46,728 nt of DNA, taken from the IMG/VR virus record IMGVR_UViG_2568526103_000007, one strand, 5' to 3'. Both the position numbers and the translations under genes were made by a program. Positions within the stretch are counted from its first letter, which is position 1, and every line of letters begins with the position of its first letter. The notes under the pieces were generated by a model. It saw only the letters and a list, made by a program, of their open reading frames with translations. It did not search any database and was not told where the DNA came from. Origin of the DNA: a virus (taxonomy: Duplodnaviria; Heunggongvirae; Uroviricota; Caudoviricetes). Of the stretch, positions 5,144-8,304 are shown one piece after another.

Positions 5144-5329
5144 AACTAAGCCGCCTCGTTGAAGCGACTAAGGTATGAAATGTTGAGTTAATTTCAGCTG
5201 GTCACACCGACGTTCACGCGTCCGTTTCACCCCTCGCACTCCCCGAAGCCTGCTGAAATTCAAACTGCGGATCTAAGCGGTCATCGCAACGGTGAATCAG
5301 GTAGTTGCCGTATCGTTGTGTTGTTGCGA

Positions 5330-5420
5330 TGAACTTATTTAAAACTATAGTTGTTTTATCGTCAACAACAAAAGTTGTTTTATTGGTTGTTTTAGATATA
5401 ACTGGTTGTATTTAGGATGG
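5330..5420. promoter_or_regulatory. Putative left operator/promoter region (oL/pL analog)
   Basis: Cluster of GGTTGT / ACAACC hexamers and short inverted repeats (for example AACAACAaaaGTTGTT) in a non-coding stretch between the repressor gene and the leftward operon; the same hexamer recurs in the cI-cro intergenic region. Confidence 0.45.
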
Positions 5421-5502
5421 ATTTATTTTGTGACTTGAATCGCATAGCGATAACTGAAGCGAGGTTATGGTGGTTTTTTTAACGGTGTGTGTGATGAGGG
5501 GA

Positions 5503-5533
5503 GGGCAAAAGAAAACCCGGCACGGTGACCGGG
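5503..5533 (-). terminator. Intrinsic terminator downstream of the repressor gene
   Basis: On the minus strand: CCCGG-8 nt loop-CCGGG followed by TTTTCTTTTG; lies about 120 nt past the cI-like stop codon. Confidence 0.5.
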
Positions 5534-5654
5534 ATTCTTACGCCGTTAGGTAAAGATATTATTGCGGTGGCTTAATATTACTACCTAGAGCAAAGATAGG
5601 AATTAGTTCTTTACTGAATGAGCACAATGCCCAGTTGATAATTTTTAATTGGTA

Positions 5655-6344
5655 CTACCCATGCTTCCTATATGTCTGCGGCATGCTCCCAATAACCTTA
5701 CCGAAGATGAACACCCGGTTCATCTCGTCTTTCTCGATCGGGTCCCACGGTGAGTAGCTTTTGTTATCAGAGATGACCAGCAGCTTATCCTTCATCATTT
5801 GCAGGCGCTTTACATGGGCTGTGTCGTCGTACAGAAACGCATAGATACCATCACCGTCGAAAGATTTAACTGTGATATCAACGAACAGCAGATCACCTGG
5901 TTCGATCGTTCCTGACATGCTGTCACCACGCACGTTAATGATGCGGATATTTTCCGCCTTCCTACCATCGAACATGTGACGAGCATCGTCAAACGAGTAC
6001 TCAACCGAGCGTAGAACTTCTACAAACTCACGGTTGATGACTCCCGGCCCAGCACTGACTTCTATATCAAGAACGTCAATCTTGAAGTATTTGGAATGGC
6101 TGACAGTTGATTGTATTGGTTGCACTGTACTGTCTGACATATTTCCAACGCCAGAAGATAACCATTCTGCGCGCACACCCAAAGCGTTCGCGATCTCCAC
6201 GATTTTAGTTGTTTGATTAGCTTTCCCTGTTTCGATTTTCTGAATAGCAGCCTGGCTAACCCCGACCAAATCCCCAAGCGCCTTTTGTGTAAGGCCTCGC
6301 GCTAATCTGGCTTCTTTAAGTCTTTCTGAGAGTGTTGTTTTCAT
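5655..6344 (-). CDS. CI-like prophage repressor (HTH_XRE + S24 LexA-like peptidase domain)
   Basis: N-terminal HTH (LTQKALGDLVGVSQAAIQKIETGK) and C-terminal S24 autocleavage domain (GDSMSGTIEPGDLLFVD ... KRL); divergent from the cro-like gene. The six-frame ORF extends to 6410, but the ATG at 6344 (MKTTLSERL) is the likely start. Confidence 0.85.
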   Translation of the reverse strand: MKTTLSERLKEARLARGLTQKALGDLVGVSQAAIQKIETGKANQTTKIVEIANALGVRAEWLSSGVGNMSDSTVQPIQSTVSHSKYFKIDVLDIEVSAGPGVINREFVEVLRSVEYSFDDARHMFDGRKAENIRIINVRGDSMSGTIEPGDLLFVDITVKSFDGDGIYAFLYDDTAHVKRLQMMKDKLLVISDNKSYSPWDPIEKDEMNRVFIFGKVIGSMPQTYRKHG

Positions 6345-6448
6345 AGTCCAAATGTACAACCAAGGTTTTATTCCATCAAACGAAAATGGTTGTTGACTAA
6401 AAACAACCATAGTTTTAATCTTGATTCAAATTAACCACGGAGGTTGTT
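6345..6448. promoter_or_regulatory. Right operator/promoter region (oR, pR, pRM analog)
   Basis: Divergent intergenic region containing the 25-bp palindrome ATGGTTGTTgactaaaAACAACCAT (6386-6410) overlapping a TTGACT -35 hexamer, plus an ACAACCaaGGTT element; GGAGG RBS 6 nt before the cro-like ATG. Confidence 0.6.
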
Positions 6449-6679
6449 ATGAACCCAGCTATCAAAACAGCGATCAATATCGTTGGTTCACAAAAGAAAC
6501 TGGGCGCTGCTTGCGAAGTTTCACAGCAGGCCGTCTATAAGTGGCTTCACAACAAAGCAAAGGTATCCCCTGAACATGTCGGCAGCATTGTTACGGCTAC
6601 TGGTGGAGTAGTGAAGGCATACCAGATTCGCCCGGATCTTCCGAAGTTGTTTCCACACACCGAAAAGAACGCAGCTTAA
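6449..6679 (+). CDS. Cro-like transcriptional regulator (YdaS-like HTH)
   Basis: 76-aa ORF divergent from the repressor gene; HTH-like segment GSQKKLGAACEVSQQAVYKW; position equals cro. Confidence 0.75.
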   Translation: MNPAIKTAINIVGSQKKLGAACEVSQQAVYKWLHNKAKVSPEHVGSIVTATGGVVKAYQIRPDLPKLFPHTEKNAA

Positions 6680-6748
6680 ATTTCCATTTCACGCTCTTTA
6701 ACAATAAGCAATCAACTTAACAGTCAATTCAAACTAAAGGAGTCAATT

Positions 6749-7288
6749 ATGCAACCACTTACATACCAACAGACTAGCGGATTTAGCCCGACTGCGGTGA
6801 TAAATCGTTCTCAAACAAAACAGGTGCCAGGCCACGAAAAAATCCGTGATGCCGTCCGCGCCTGGTCGGCTGTAGATAATCAGGATGTCGTTGCCACACT
6901 CATTGTGAATGAGTATCTGGAGCAGGGCGGCGGCACCATCGATTTCCCTGATGATGTCAGCCGTGCACGCCAGAAGCTGTTCCGCTTCCTCGATAACAAA
7001 TTCGATTCTGAAAAATACCGAAATAACGTGCGTGAACTGACCCCGGCAATTCTGGCGGTACTACCGCTGGAATATCGCGGTTACCTGGTTGAGCAGGATA
7101 GCTTCATGGCTAGGTTGGCTGAAATGGAAAAGGAACTCAGTGAGGCAAAACAGGCTGTCATTCTCAACGCACCACGCCACCAGAAACTGAAGGAAATTAG
7201 TGAAGGTATTGTGTCGATGTTTCGTGTGGACCCAGATCTGGCTGGTCCATTGATGGCGATGGTTACTACCATGCTGGGGGCGATATGA
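6749..7288 (+). CDS. YdaT-like protein (CII functional analog of Rac-type immunity regions)
   Basis: 179-aa ORF; segments EYLEQGGG and LTPAILAVLPLEYR resemble remembered E. coli YdaT (EYLRQGGG, LIPAILAILPRELR); located directly after cro where cII sits. Confidence 0.6.
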   Translation: MQPLTYQQTSGFSPTAVINRSQTKQVPGHEKIRDAVRAWSAVDNQDVVATLIVNEYLEQGGGTIDFPDDVSRARQKLFRFLDNKFDSEKYRNNVRELTPAILAVLPLEYRGYLVEQDSFMARLAEMEKELSEAKQAVILNAPRHQKLKEISEGIVSMFRVDPDLAGPLMAMVTTMLGAI

Positions 7289-7374
7289 CAGGTTCAGAAA
7301 TGGCGAAAGCCGGTCTGCTGGAACAGAACCGACTTTCAGGTGCAAATCGTAACACACTCATTGCGGGAGGAATT

Positions 7375-8304
7375 ATGGCAAACACTGCTGAGATATTCAA
7401 TTTTCCAGTGCCGGATGCGGCACAAAAGGAGCCGCGCGTGGCAGATCTCGATGATGGTTATACGCGCATTGCAAATGAGTTGCTGGAAGCTGTGATGCTG
7501 GCCGGATTAACACAGCACCAGCTTCTGGTCTTTCTGGCTGTCATGCGCAAAACATATGGCTTTAATAAAAAACTGGATTGGGTTAGCAACGAGCAACTTT
7601 CCGAATTAACCGGGATATTGCCGCACAAGTGTTCTGCTGCAAAAAGTGTTCTGGTAAAGCGTGGGATTTTTATTCAGAGCGGGCGGAATACCGGCATTAA
7701 TAATGTGGTCAGTGAATGGTCAACATTACCCGAATCAGGTAAGAAAAATAAAGTTTACCTGAAAGAGGTAAATTTACCTGAATCAGGTAAAAAAAGTTTA
7801 CCCAAATCAGGTAAAGGCGTTTACCCGAATCAGGTAAACACAAAAGACAAACTAACAAAAGACAATATAAAACCTTTTTCGTCCGAGAATTCTGGCGAAT
7901 CCTCTGACCAACCAGAAAACGATCTTCCTGTGGTGAAACCGGATGCTGCAATTCAGAGCGGCAGCAAGTGGGGGACAGCAGAAGACCTGACCGCCGCAGA
8001 GTGGATGTTTGACATGGTGAAGACCATCGCGCCATCAGCCAGAAAACCGAATTTTGCAGGGTGGGCTAACGATATCCGCCTGATGCGTGAACGTGACGGA
8101 CGTAACCACCGCGACATGTGCGTGCTGTTCCGCTGGGCATGCCAGGACAACTTCTGGTCCGGTAACGTGCTAAGTCCGGCCAAACTCCGCGACAAGTGGA
8201 CCCAACTCGAAATCAACCGTAACAAGCAACAGGCAGGCGTGACAGCTAGCAAACCAAAACTCGACCTGACAAACACAGACTGGATTTACGGGGTGGATCT
8301 ATGA
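7375..8304 (+). CDS. O: Replication initiator O (non-lambda N-terminal DNA-binding domain, lambda-identical C-terminal domain)
   Basis: The ORF is open from 7285, but the ATG at 7375 with a GGGAGG RBS gives MANTAEIFNF..., aligning with lambda O MTNTAKILNF; the C-terminal ~120 aa match lambda O; the iterons lie inside the gene. Confidence 0.85.
   Translation: MANTAEIFNFPVPDAAQKEPRVADLDDGYTRIANELLEAVMLAGLTQHQLLVFLAVMRKTYGFNKKLDWVSNEQLSELTGILPHKCSAAKSVLVKRGIFIQSGRNTGINNVVSEWSTLPESGKKNKVYLKEVNLPESGKKSLPKSGKGVYPNQVNTKDKLTKDNIKPFSSENSGESSDQPENDLPVVKPDAAIQSGSKWGTAEDLTAAEWMFDMVKTIAPSARKPNFAGWANDIRLMRERDGRNHRDMCVLFRWACQDNFWSGNVLSPAKLRDKWTQLEINRNKQQAGVTASKPKLDLTNTDWIYGVDL
7726..7837. repeat. Replication origin iterons (five ~18-bp direct repeats TTTACCYRAAWSAGGTAA) followed by an A-rich stretch
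   Basis: Five copies read directly at 7726, 7754, 7773, 7797 and 7820, each internally palindromic (TTACC...GGTAA); embedded in O as in ori-lambda. Confidence 0.8.

What the first reader, a model, noticed from the sequence alone, without database searches (positions are those of the whole stretch)
5330..7288. Rac/CP-933-type immunity module (S24 repressor, YdaS-like Cro, YdaT-like CII analog) grafted into a lambda backbone, with GGTTGT/ACAACC operators
The repressor is a LexA-like autocleavable cI (HTH plus S24 domain), but cro and the gene after it resemble E. coli YdaS and YdaT rather than lambda Cro/CII. I recall YdaS/YdaT being reported as Cro/CII functional analogs rather than a toxin-antitoxin pair, but could not verify that here. 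The cI-cro intergenic region contains a 25-bp palindrome ATGGTTGTTgactaaaAACAACCAT overlapping the -35 of the rightward promoter, and the same GGTTGT/ACAACC hexamers recur several times in the putative oL region (5330-5420). This defines a candidate operator consensus for this immunity type.
Basis: partly seen in the sequence, partly recalled or inferred. Interest (0 to 1): 0.5.

Follow-up and report, generated by a model that had tools for sequence, protein, structure and literature searches.

The report
Common lambdoid prophage immunity switch

Summary
The segment is 100% identical to Escherichia phage PhiR34_1. Its core (6150-6760) occurs in 1524 of 5426 complete E. coli genomes.

The repressor (5655-6344, minus strand) has an N-terminal domain like that of the 434 repressor, plus an S24 autoprotease domain. 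Cro belongs to the Pfam YdaS family. The 179-aa protein is a phi80-type CII of the YdaT family.

- **Repressor:** it is unrelated to RacR or PaaR2, so this is not a Rac/CP-933-type module.
- **Operator unit:** it is a 14-bp dyad, ACAAC-N4-GTTGT, with the geometry of 434 operators. There are four in oR and two 24 bp apart in oL, plus lone half-sites.
- **The palindrome:** it is the right half of the second oR dyad plus the left half of the third.

Two comparisons support this. Heteroimmune relatives (4A7, Perceval) differ only in the oL patch and the cI-NTD/oR/cro patch, and carry different 14-bp dyads at the same positions. Four phages from other genera with the same or nearly the same recognition helix keep the dyads while the DNA between them diverges.

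This is a new member of a known kind, of low interest. No protein–DNA binding was tested.

The parts
5330..5425 (-). Immunity-specific oL/pL patch
   Evidence: This is the only stretch between 4700 and 5613 that is replaced in the heteroimmune phage 4A7; the flanks are about 92% identical. Its left edge coincides with the predicted pL +1 (about 5330).
5341..5354 (-). OL1 dyad ACAACTATAGTTTT (one mismatch to ACAAC-N4-GTTGT), in the pL spacer and overlapping the -10 hexamer by 2 nt
   Evidence: An equivalent dyad sits 24 bp from OL2 in L008, L009, L010 and L012.
5365..5378 (-). OL2 dyad ACAACTTTTGTTGT (perfect), abutting the pL -35
   Evidence: conserved in four relatives.
5337..5342 (-). Predicted pL -10 (TTAAAT)
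   Evidence: Lies 17 bp from TTGACG. Same layout as pR, with a 19-nt match between pL and pR (I2). Inferred.
5360..5365 (-). Predicted pL -35 (TTGACG)
   Evidence: 'tgac' follows OL2 in all five phages. Inferred.
5385..5390 (-). Lone ACAACC half-site, 12 bp upstream of OL2
   Evidence: Upstream ACAACC(A)-type half-sites occur in all four relatives; this -12 offset is matched only in L008, as ACAGCCA. No dyad partner; role unknown.
5404..5409 (-). Lone ACAACC half-site, 31 bp upstream of OL2 (possible weak OL3 at 5396-5409)
   Evidence: A half-site lies at -31 or -32 in four of five phages.
5516..5533 (-). Intrinsic terminator of the cI transcript
   Evidence: CCCGGTCACCGTGCCGGG followed by TTTTCTTTTG.
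5655..6344 (-). cI repressor, 229 aa: 434-like HTH domain plus S24 autoprotease domain
   Evidence: Pfam and PHROG 4. The 434 repressor DNA-binding domain is the best solved match (E 4.5e-9, gapless over residues 5-68). A98-G99, S142 and K179 are present.
6351..6356 (-). Predicted pRM -10 (TACATT); the cI mRNA would be leaderless (+1 at the A of ATG, 6344)
   Evidence: Positions T1, A2 and T6 are invariant in five phages. Inferred.
6374..6379 (-). Predicted pRM -35 (TTGATG)
   Evidence: its TTG is invariant in five phages. Inferred.
6356..6369 (.). oR dyad 1, ACAACCAAGGTTTT (lambda OR3-like; fills the pRM spacer)
   Evidence: eight of ten half-site columns are invariant in five phages.
6380..6393 (.). 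oR dyad 2, ACGAAAATGGTTGT (OR2-like). It abuts the pRM -35 (centre about -42.5) and overlaps the pR -35 by 1 nt
6403..6416 (.). oR dyad 3, ACAACCATAGTTTT (OR1-like; fills the pR spacer)
   Evidence: all ten half-site columns are invariant in five phages.
6434..6447 (.). oR dyad 4, ACCACGGAGGTTGT, at about +6 to +19 of pR with the cro Shine-Dalgarno in its centre
   Evidence: Kept in four of five same-specificity phages. A fourth dyad lies at the same place in the 4A7 type.
6393..6398 (+). Predicted pR -35 (TTGACT)
   Evidence: TTG invariant. Inferred.
6416..6421 (+). Predicted pR -10 (TAATCT)
   Evidence: T1, A2 and T6 invariant. Inferred.
6386..6410 (.).
6449..6679 (+). Cro, 76 aa, YdaS family. 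Its recognition helix VSQQAVYK resembles the VSQAAIQK of cI
   Evidence: Pfam and PHROG 35. The nearest solved structure is deposited as 'Cro protein' (3bd1). 30% identical to Rac YdaS.
6749..7288 (+). CII analogue of the phi80 type (YdaT family), 179 aa
   Evidence: Pfam; PHROG 163 'CII-like transcriptional activator', 6e-67. 66% identical to phi80 cII, 36% to Rac YdaT, and a distant match to 8bt1.
6748..6765 (.). Weak candidate YdaT-type box, TATGCA-N6-TACATA, over the start codon
   Evidence: Same geometry and position as the Rac YdaT-box (PMC11879457) and present in 4A7, but not kept in phi80, mEp237 or CobraSix.

Best explanation
This is a canonical lambdoid immunity switch with 434-class operators.

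**Lysogeny (inferred).** cI dimers bind 14-bp dyads ACAAC-N4-GTTGT. In oR, dyad 3 (6403-6416) sits in the pR spacer and dyad 2 (6380-6393) overlaps the pR -35, so together they shut off pR. Dyad 2 also abuts the pRM -35, centred near -42.5. That is the position from which lambda and 434 repressors activate pRM, which here would make a leaderless cI mRNA. Dyad 1 (6356-6369) fills the pRM spacer and would give negative autoregulation. In oL, OL2 and OL1 (5365-5378 and 5341-5354) shut off pL in the same way.

**Induction (inferred).** RecA* would stimulate S24 self-cleavage at Ala98-Gly99, using Ser142 and Lys179. pR would then express Cro and the CII analogue.

**Lytic and establishment functions (inferred).** Cro is a YdaS-family HTH protein whose recognition helix begins VSQ-A like that of cI, so it should compete for the same dyads. 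The CII analogue (phi80 type, YdaT family) should favour establishment of lysogeny, by analogy with lambda CII and the Rac and CP-933P YdaT proteins.

**What is shown:** gene families, motif statistics, and conservation and co-variation of the dyads.
**What is inferred:** all binding, the promoter positions, pRM activation and the order in which sites fill.
For: 1. Family assignments. The closest solved relative of the cI N-terminal domain is the 434 repressor. Its operators are 14 bp, with the outer 5+5 bp contacted and ACAA...TTGT conserved (PMC1636474).
2. Five of the six matches with at most one mismatch to ACAAC-N4-GTTGT in 46.7 kb fall in oL/oR.
3. Co-variation: 4A7, Perceval and two Klebsiella phages share the cI C-terminal domain. 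The E. coli pair also shares the pL leader and the cII/O/P genes. Both replaced patches, oL (5330-~5425) and cI-NTD/oR/cro (6211-6748), were mapped by alignment in 4A7. Their helix 3 is AQPTIWR (cI) and AQPTVWR (Cro), and their dyads are ATACGC-NN-GCGTAT-like, at the same four oR positions.
4. Footprinting: phages from Klebsiella, Providencia, Salmonella and Erwinia have cI N-terminal domains 61-74% identical, with the same or nearly the same helix 3. They keep four oR dyads and two oL dyads 24 bp apart. In the five-way alignment, 27 of 40 half-site columns are invariant, against 1 of 12 dyad-centre columns and 1 of 27 other columns (Fisher p = 4e-9). Ten of 21 predicted promoter-hexamer columns are invariant, including TTG and TAnnnT.
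5. Variants in three further copies (two E. coli genomes and phage PhiR47_2) change only inter-site bases.
6. In CP-933P, a YdaS Cro and its repressor footprint overlapping sites, and YdaT acts like CII (PMC8630535, PMC9986795).
Against: - No binding, transcription-start or cleavage data exist for this phage.
- Dyad 2 has a poor left half (ACGAA).
- Dyad 4 contains the Shine-Dalgarno, so part of its conservation may be translational, and it is not recognisable in phiEt88.
- oL has only two clear dyads, plus lone half-sites that the model does not explain.
- The binding site of the CII analogue and a pRE-like promoter were not found. The known YdaT box TTGATT-N6-AATCAA is absent between cro and the gene.
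Confidence: 0.8

Rival explanations
1. One reading: the operator unit is the long palindrome GGTTGT-N9-ACAACC (21-25 bp, 6386-6410), bound by one repressor dimer, and copies of the hexamer pair define the consensus.
For: The palindrome is perfect (nine of nine arm positions) and overlaps the pR -35. The hexamers are strongly enriched in oL/oR.
Against: - Only one instance exists in the window at up to one mismatch, and none in oL.
- The arm spacing is not fixed: 9 bp in oR, 10 bp in oL in all five phages, and 10 bp in phiEt88 oR.
- In UPF_BP1 the left arm is degenerate (GTGTT) while the 14-bp dyads persist.
- The half-site centres are 15 bp apart, about 1.5 helical turns, and point the opposite way to 434 half-sites. 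That does not fit a 434-like HTH dimer (PMC1636474).
- Two adjacent dyads generate such a palindrome automatically.
Confidence: 0.06
2. The cro-like and 179-aa genes are a YdaS/YdaT toxin pair, as the Pfam names say, kept silent by the repressor. They would not be lysis-lysogeny regulators.
For: The Pfam names are 'Bacterial toxin YdaS/YdaT'. RefSeq annotates the 179-aa gene as 'toxin YdaT domain-containing protein'. Ectopic expression of the Rac genes is toxic (PMC5917430).
Against: - Both proteins are HTH DNA-binding proteins that occupy the cro and cII positions of a complete lambdoid phage.
- CP-933P and Rac YdaS/YdaT have been shown to act as Cro- and CII-like regulators (PMC8630535, PMC9986795, PMC11879457).
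- The 179-aa protein is 66% identical to the gene annotated cII in phi80 and belongs to PHROG 163, 'CII-like transcriptional activator'.
- The nearest solved structure to Cro is deposited as 'Cro protein' (3bd1).
Confidence: 0.03
3. The repeated ACAACC(A) motifs, especially the lone copies upstream of pL, are bound by something other than cI. Candidates are Cro alone, the CII analogue, or a host factor. Alternatively they are A-tract or UP-like promoter architecture, so only some of the motifs are repressor operators.
For: The lone half-sites at 5385 and 5404 lack dyad partners, yet lone half-sites of this type recur in four relatives, in A-rich DNA, with repeat spacings of about 10-19 bp in direct orientation. 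Lambda CII recognises direct repeats (established knowledge).
Against: The motif equals the operator half-site. It is replaced together with the cI and Cro recognition helices in 4A7, although 4A7 keeps the same CII analogue (97% identical). A weak one-half operator filled cooperatively, as an OL3, is the simpler account.
Confidence: 0.1

Closest known systems
Phage 434 immunity region (cI, Cro and 14-bp operators ACAA-N6-TTGT)
   Same: The cI N-terminal domain is the best match to the 434 repressor DNA-binding domain (E 4.5e-9, gapless). The dyads are 14 bp with a 5+4+5 layout, and the outer ACAA...TTGT is the same (PMC1636474). Dyads lie in tandem 23-25 bp apart across divergent pR/pRM, with a second set at pL. 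The repressor carries an S24 C-terminal domain.
   Different: - Position 5 is C (ACAAC), not G/T.
- Helix 3 is SQAAIQK, against TQQSIEQ in 434.
- oR has four dyads, the fourth over the cro ribosome-binding site, not three.
- oL has two clear dyads plus lone half-sites.
- Cro is from the YdaS family, not a 434-Cro paralogue of the repressor domain.
- Cross-immunity was not tested.
Phage phi80 cII and its early region (also mEp237, HK225, HK639)
   Same: The 179-aa protein is 66% identical over its full length to the gene annotated cII in phi80. Both are followed by O/P-type replication genes. PMC8630535 notes that YdaT is homologous to phi80 CII.
   Different: phi80 has a different cI and Cro and annotated 19-bp operators. 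It also has an intergenic M3/oop RNA downstream of cII, whereas here the cII-like gene overlaps O.
CP-933P (PaaR2-YdaS-YdaT) and Rac (RacR-YdaS-YdaT) cryptic prophage switches
   Same: Cro and the CII analogue belong to the same Pfam families. The layout is divergent repressor/cro. Four repeats were reported in the CP-933P intergenic region, and a leaderless repressor mRNA (PMC8630535).
   Different: - The repressors are unrelated: RacR gives no hit, and PaaR2 has no peptidase motif and is not SOS-inducible.
- Sequence identity is only 30% (YdaS) and 36% (YdaT).
- The operator sequences are unrelated (GTTTAGTAA-type in CP-933P).
- The YdaT box TTGATT-N6-AATCAA is absent here.
- There is no toxin-antitoxin cargo, and this phage appears intact.
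Sequenced phages PhiR34_1, PhiR47_2, PhiR26_1, PhiR5_1, IdasGreatGrand, Turner, and the heteroimmune Bievrevirus 4A7 and Perceval
   Same: Identical or nearly identical immunity region, already annotated as cI / Cro / cII.
   Different: No operator annotation exists in the records examined. The PhiR34_1 record starts cI at an upstream ATG (6410 in the window) that lies inside the operators.

Membership tests
LexA / lambda-cI type S24 self-cleaving repressors | N-terminal HTH DNA-binding domain plus C-terminal Peptidase_S24 domain | tested here: met
   HTH_3 at residues 9-62 (5e-13) and Peptidase_S24 at 95-218 (1e-18).
LexA / lambda-cI type S24 self-cleaving repressors | Ala-Gly cleavage site in the linker and a Ser/Lys catalytic dyad | tested here: met
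   A98-G99 in EVSAGPG, S142 in GDSM and K179 in VKRL. The assignment is by motif, using established LexA/cI knowledge.
LexA / lambda-cI type S24 self-cleaving repressors | RecA*-stimulated self-cleavage and SOS induction | not testable with these tools
   Requires an in vitro cleavage assay or mitomycin C induction.
434-class repressor/operator system | DNA-binding domain homologous to the 434 repressor | tested here: met
   1per: E 4.5e-9, gapless over residues 5-68. 434 Cro (1zug): E 2.7e-7.
434-class repressor/operator system | 14-bp dyad operators with conserved outer ACAA/TTGT and a variable centre | tested here: met
   The N4 spacing is constant in 29 of the 30 dyads scored. Half-sites are conserved and centres variable.
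434-class repressor/operator system | Three tandem sites in each of oR and oL | tested here: not met
   There are four dyads in oR, and two dyads plus lone half-sites in oL.
434-class repressor/operator system | Same immunity specificity as 434 | not tested
   The helix-3 residues differ and position 5 of the half-site differs. Needs cross-immunity or binding assays.
YdaS family (PF15943) Cro-type regulators | Profile match above the curated threshold | tested here: met
   62.2 bits against a cut-off of 30; 30% identical to Rac YdaS, E 5e-8.
YdaS family (PF15943) Cro-type regulators | Binds the same operators as the cognate repressor | not testable with these tools
   Indirect support only. 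Helix 3 of cI and Cro resemble each other within each immunity type and change together between types.
YdaT family / phi80-type CII | Profile match above threshold and homology to phi80 cII | tested here: met
   PF06254: 103 bits against a cut-off of 21. PHROG 163: 6e-67. 66% identical to phi80 cII. 8bt1: E 7e-4.
YdaT family / phi80-type CII | Inverted repeat TTGATT-N6-AATCAA (YdaT box) between cro and the gene, or over its start | tested here: not met
   The best match, with two mismatches, is at 6421-6438 in the pR leader and is not kept in 4A7. Nothing matches in the cro-cII spacer. A different 6-N6-6 repeat at 6748-6765 is not conserved in phi80-type relatives.
YdaT family / phi80-type CII | Tetramer formed through a long C-terminal helix; activation of a leftward establishment promoter | not tested
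   No structure prediction was run, and no promoter could be assigned.
   No similarity to RacR (best E 5.8). This repressor has an S24 domain, whereas PaaR2 lacks the peptidase motif (PMC8630535).

The most novel reading that the evidence does not exclude
This immunity group and its heteroimmune sister group (4A7 type) may share a non-lambda operator plan, conserved across five enterobacterial genera. The plan has a fourth operator inside the initial transcribed region of pR, centred on the cro Shine-Dalgarno. It also has lone, direct-repeat half-sites upstream of pL. Together these could support a higher-order repressor assembly, or an extra checkpoint on cro expression, that the three-plus-three lambda/434 scheme lacks.
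Probability: 0.25. Interest if true: 0.35.

Novelty: new member of a known kind. Interest (0 to 1): 0.2.

Why it matters
Operators for this immunity type are not annotated in the phage records I examined, and my limited literature searches found no description of them. The type is very common: 28% of complete E. coli genomes carry it.

A correct operator definition (ACAAC-N4-GTTGT, four in oR and two in oL) lets one:
- predict superinfection immunity groups from sequence;
- design reporters or de-repression mutants;
- correct database errors, namely the 'toxin YdaS/YdaT' names and the 251-aa cI start.

The paired window-type and 4A7-type phages are a clean natural example of co-replacement of a recognition helix and its operators. 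None of this changes how lambdoid switches are understood.

Tried and rejected
- **Rfam**, whole window at gathering threshold: no hits, so no nut/put/oop-type family was detected.
- **Folding the 192-nt pL leader**: not more stable than shuffles (z = -0.33). The idea of an HK022-like put RNA is not supported. A distant DNA search returned only the same phage group plus a 37-bp match in HK225.
- **The known YdaT box** (TTGATT-N6-AATCAA): only a two-mismatch hit in the pR leader, not conserved in 4A7, so treated as chance.
- **De novo search for a conserved CII-analogue site** across six phi80-type cII loci: every top hit lies at homologous coding positions and is confounded by protein conservation. 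The repeat TATGCA-N6-TACATA over the start codon is not kept in phi80, mEp237 or CobraSix.
- **phi80 M3/oop RNA against the window**: no convincing similarity.
- **Literature searches** for PhiR34_1 and for GevT/GevA: nothing relevant.
- **The simple sigma-70 scan** missed pR, pL and pRM because their -10 hexamers score below its threshold. Promoters were therefore placed by conservation instead.
Full report
**What is there.**
The region carries a leftward gene for a 229-aa repressor (5655-6344) and a rightward 76-aa cro-like gene (6449-6679). A 179-aa gene follows (6749-7288), then lambda-type O and P. To the left lie kil, gam, bet and exo. Exo differs from lambda exonuclease at 3 of 225 residues, so 'lambda backbone' is correct.

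The stretch 5150-7300 is 100% identical to Escherichia phage PhiR34_1. It is 96-97% identical to several other sequenced temperate coliphages, where the genes are already annotated cI, Cro and cII. The core (6150-6760) occurs in 1524 of 5426 complete E. coli genomes, mostly at 99% identity or more. This is a very common prophage immunity region.

**Checking the observation.**
The 25-bp palindrome at 6386-6410 is exact and contains TTGACT. GGTTGT/ACAACC occurs 28 times in the window, and six copies sit in the two control regions, where 0.14 would be expected.

**Protein identities.**
- *cI.* It matches HTH_3 and Peptidase_S24. It has an Ala98-Gly99 candidate cleavage site, Ser142 in GDSM and Lys179 in VKRL. 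Its N-terminal domain is most similar, among solved structures, to the phage 434 repressor DNA-binding domain (E 4.5e-9, no gaps over residues 5-68).
- *Cro.* It passes the Pfam YdaS threshold. Its nearest solved relative is deposited as 'Cro protein' (3bd1).
- *The 179-aa protein.* It passes the YdaT threshold (103 bits) and belongs to PHROG 163, 'CII-like transcriptional activator'. It is 66% identical over its full length to the gene annotated cII in phi80, but only 36% identical to Rac YdaT. It is a distant match to CP-933P YdaT.

The literature shows that YdaS and YdaT act as Cro and CII analogues, and that YdaT is homologous to phi80 CII (PMC8630535, PMC9986795, PMC11879457).

The label 'Rac/CP-933-type module' is not right. 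RacR shows no similarity to this repressor, and PaaR2 lacks the peptidase motif (PMC8630535). The three genes are not a fixed unit either. The same cI/Cro specificity sits next to a small protein annotated as CII (CII family or CII-like) in the Klebsiella, Salmonella and Erwinia phages. In the Providencia phage a small unannotated ORF occupies that position. The same phi80-type CII serves two different immunity types.

**The operator unit.**
434 operators are 14 bp. The outer 5+5 bp are contacted and the outer ACAA...TTGT is conserved (PMC1636474). I therefore searched for ACAAC-N4-GTTGT, which is a subset of ACAA-N6-TTGT.

With at most one mismatch it hits six times in 46.7 kb. Five of those hits lie in oL (5341, 5365) and oR (6356, 6403, 6434). 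A two-mismatch site at 6380 completes a series spaced 24, 23 and 31 bp apart. The chance of that placement is about 2e-11.

The palindrome is simply the right half of dyad 6380-6393 followed by the left half of dyad 6403-6416.

**Test 1: co-variation.**
Phages 4A7 and Perceval are 90-97% identical to the window across the pL leader, the cI C-terminal domain and cII-O-P. In 4A7 the alignment breaks in exactly two patches, 5330-~5425 and 6211-6748. In Perceval the second patch is replaced in the same way, and its alignment does not run continuously across oL.

Within the second patch, helix 3 of cI changes from VSQAAIQK to VAQPTIWR. Helix 3 of Cro changes from VSQQAVYK to VAQPTVWR. The dyads change to ATACGCTTGCGTAT, ACACGTTTTGCTAT, ATACGCATTGCTAT and ATACCAATAGGAAT, at the same four positions. 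A Klebsiella phage with the 4A7-type helix keeps those four dyads while the DNA between them differs.

GTTGT copies at 5315 and 5320 lie in the conserved leader that the heteroimmune 4A7 shares, so they are not operators.

**Test 2: phylogenetic footprinting.**
Four phages have cI N-terminal domains 61-74% identical to the window's, with the same or nearly the same helix 3. They come from Klebsiella, Providencia, Salmonella (UPF_BP1) and Erwinia (phiEt88). All keep the oR dyads in place, except that phiEt88 lacks a clear fourth. All keep two oL dyads exactly 24 bp apart.

| Column class in the five-way oR alignment | Invariant columns |
|---|---|
| Dyad half-sites | 27 of 40 |
| Dyad centres (dyads 1-3) | 1 of 12 |
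| Other intergenic columns | 1 of 27 |
| Predicted promoter hexamers | 10 of 21 |

The difference between half-sites and the centre and other columns gives Fisher p = 4e-9. The remaining invariant columns fall on the predicted promoter hexamers, the Shine-Dalgarno and the start codons.

The N4 inside the dyads is constant in 29 of the 30 scored. Sequence variants in two E. coli genomes and phage PhiR47_2 touch only inter-site bases.

**Promoter model (inferred from conservation and spacing).**

| Promoter | -35 | Spacer | -10 | Predicted +1 |
|---|---|---|---|---|
| pR (plus strand) | TTGACT, 6393-6398 | 17 bp | TAATCT, 6416-6421 | about 6428 |
| pRM (minus strand) | TTGATG, 6374-6379 | 17 bp | TACATT, 6351-6356 | 6344, the A of the cI ATG |
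| pL (minus strand) | TTGACG, 5360-5365 | 17 bp | TTAAAT, 5337-5342 | about 5330 |

- A pRM start at 6344 would give a leaderless mRNA, as for lambda cI and PaaR2.
- The predicted pL start coincides with the mosaic junction with 4A7.
- Dyads 1 and 3 fill the pRM and pR spacers in mirror-image fashion.
- Dyad 2 abuts the pRM -35, centred at about -42.5, which is the lambda OR2 geometry. It clips the pR -35 by 1 nt.
- A terminator (5533-5516) follows cI.

The mechanism is therefore the standard lambdoid switch, with S24 cleavage on SOS induction. Binding, site occupancy order and pRM activation are all inferred.

**What does not fit neatly.**
- oR has a fourth dyad (6434-6447) at about +6 to +19 of pR, with the cro Shine-Dalgarno in its centre. 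It is present in both immunity types.
- oL has lone ACAACC half-sites 12 and 31 bp upstream of OL2 (5385, 5404). The relatives also carry lone half-sites of this type upstream of OL2, but none has a dyad partner.
- The CII analogue is 97% identical between the two immunity types although everything upstream of its ATG differs. No YdaT box or pRE-like promoter could be assigned.

**Verdict.**
The feature is real and the gene-family calls are right. The module label and the operator pairing are wrong. It is a new, uncharacterised specificity within a thoroughly known kind of system, and it is widespread but unsurprising.

Noticed in passing
window 9252-12803 (+): A 1183-aa inverse autotransporter of the intimin/invasin family (IAT_beta plus five Big_1/Invasin_D3 repeats) lies about 250 bp downstream of replication gene P. 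PhiR34_1 has ren and emrE at that place. It looks like adhesin cargo carried by the prophage.
   Followed up: partly
window 5534-5654 (insertion point about 5610-5613): The slot between the cI stop and its terminator, equivalent to the rexAB position in lambda, is empty here. Relatives carry different two-gene cassettes at this point: GevT/GevA in PhiR47_2, an ASCH-domain gene plus a hypothetical gene in 4A7, and a transmembrane gene plus a hypothetical gene in Perceval.
   Followed up: partly
window 5144-5335 (-): There is no N-like ORF and no nut or put RNA. The predicted pL transcript begins with a 187-nt leader conserved at 95% or more in this phage group, followed directly by kil-gam-bet-exo. 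A perfect 10-bp stem (5281-5290 with 5323-5332) sits at its 5' end, but the leader as a whole folds no better than shuffled sequence. Rfam finds nothing.
   Followed up: partly
window 6345-6410 (-): The GenBank record of PhiR34_1 annotates cI as 251 aa, starting at an ATG equivalent to window 6410, which lies inside the operator region. Homologues start at MKTT (6344) and the upstream DNA diverges freely between phages, so the 229-aa form is the correct one.
   Followed up: yes
window 7372-7400 (-): A promoter-like site (TTGAAT-17-CATAAT, with an extended TG) lies inside the 5' end of O and points into the 3' end of the cII-like gene. Lambda pO/oop sits at the equivalent position. No similarity to the phi80 M3 RNA was found and no clear terminator was seen.
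   Followed up: partly
L003 4914-4943; L013, L015, L016 about 40 nt upstream of the cII start: 4A7, phi80, CobraSix and HK225 carry a GC-rich hairpin (GCCGCC-taayc-GGCGGC) just after cro. The window type lacks it. It could be a nutR/boxB-like or tR1-like element and is specific to those immunity types.
   Followed up: no
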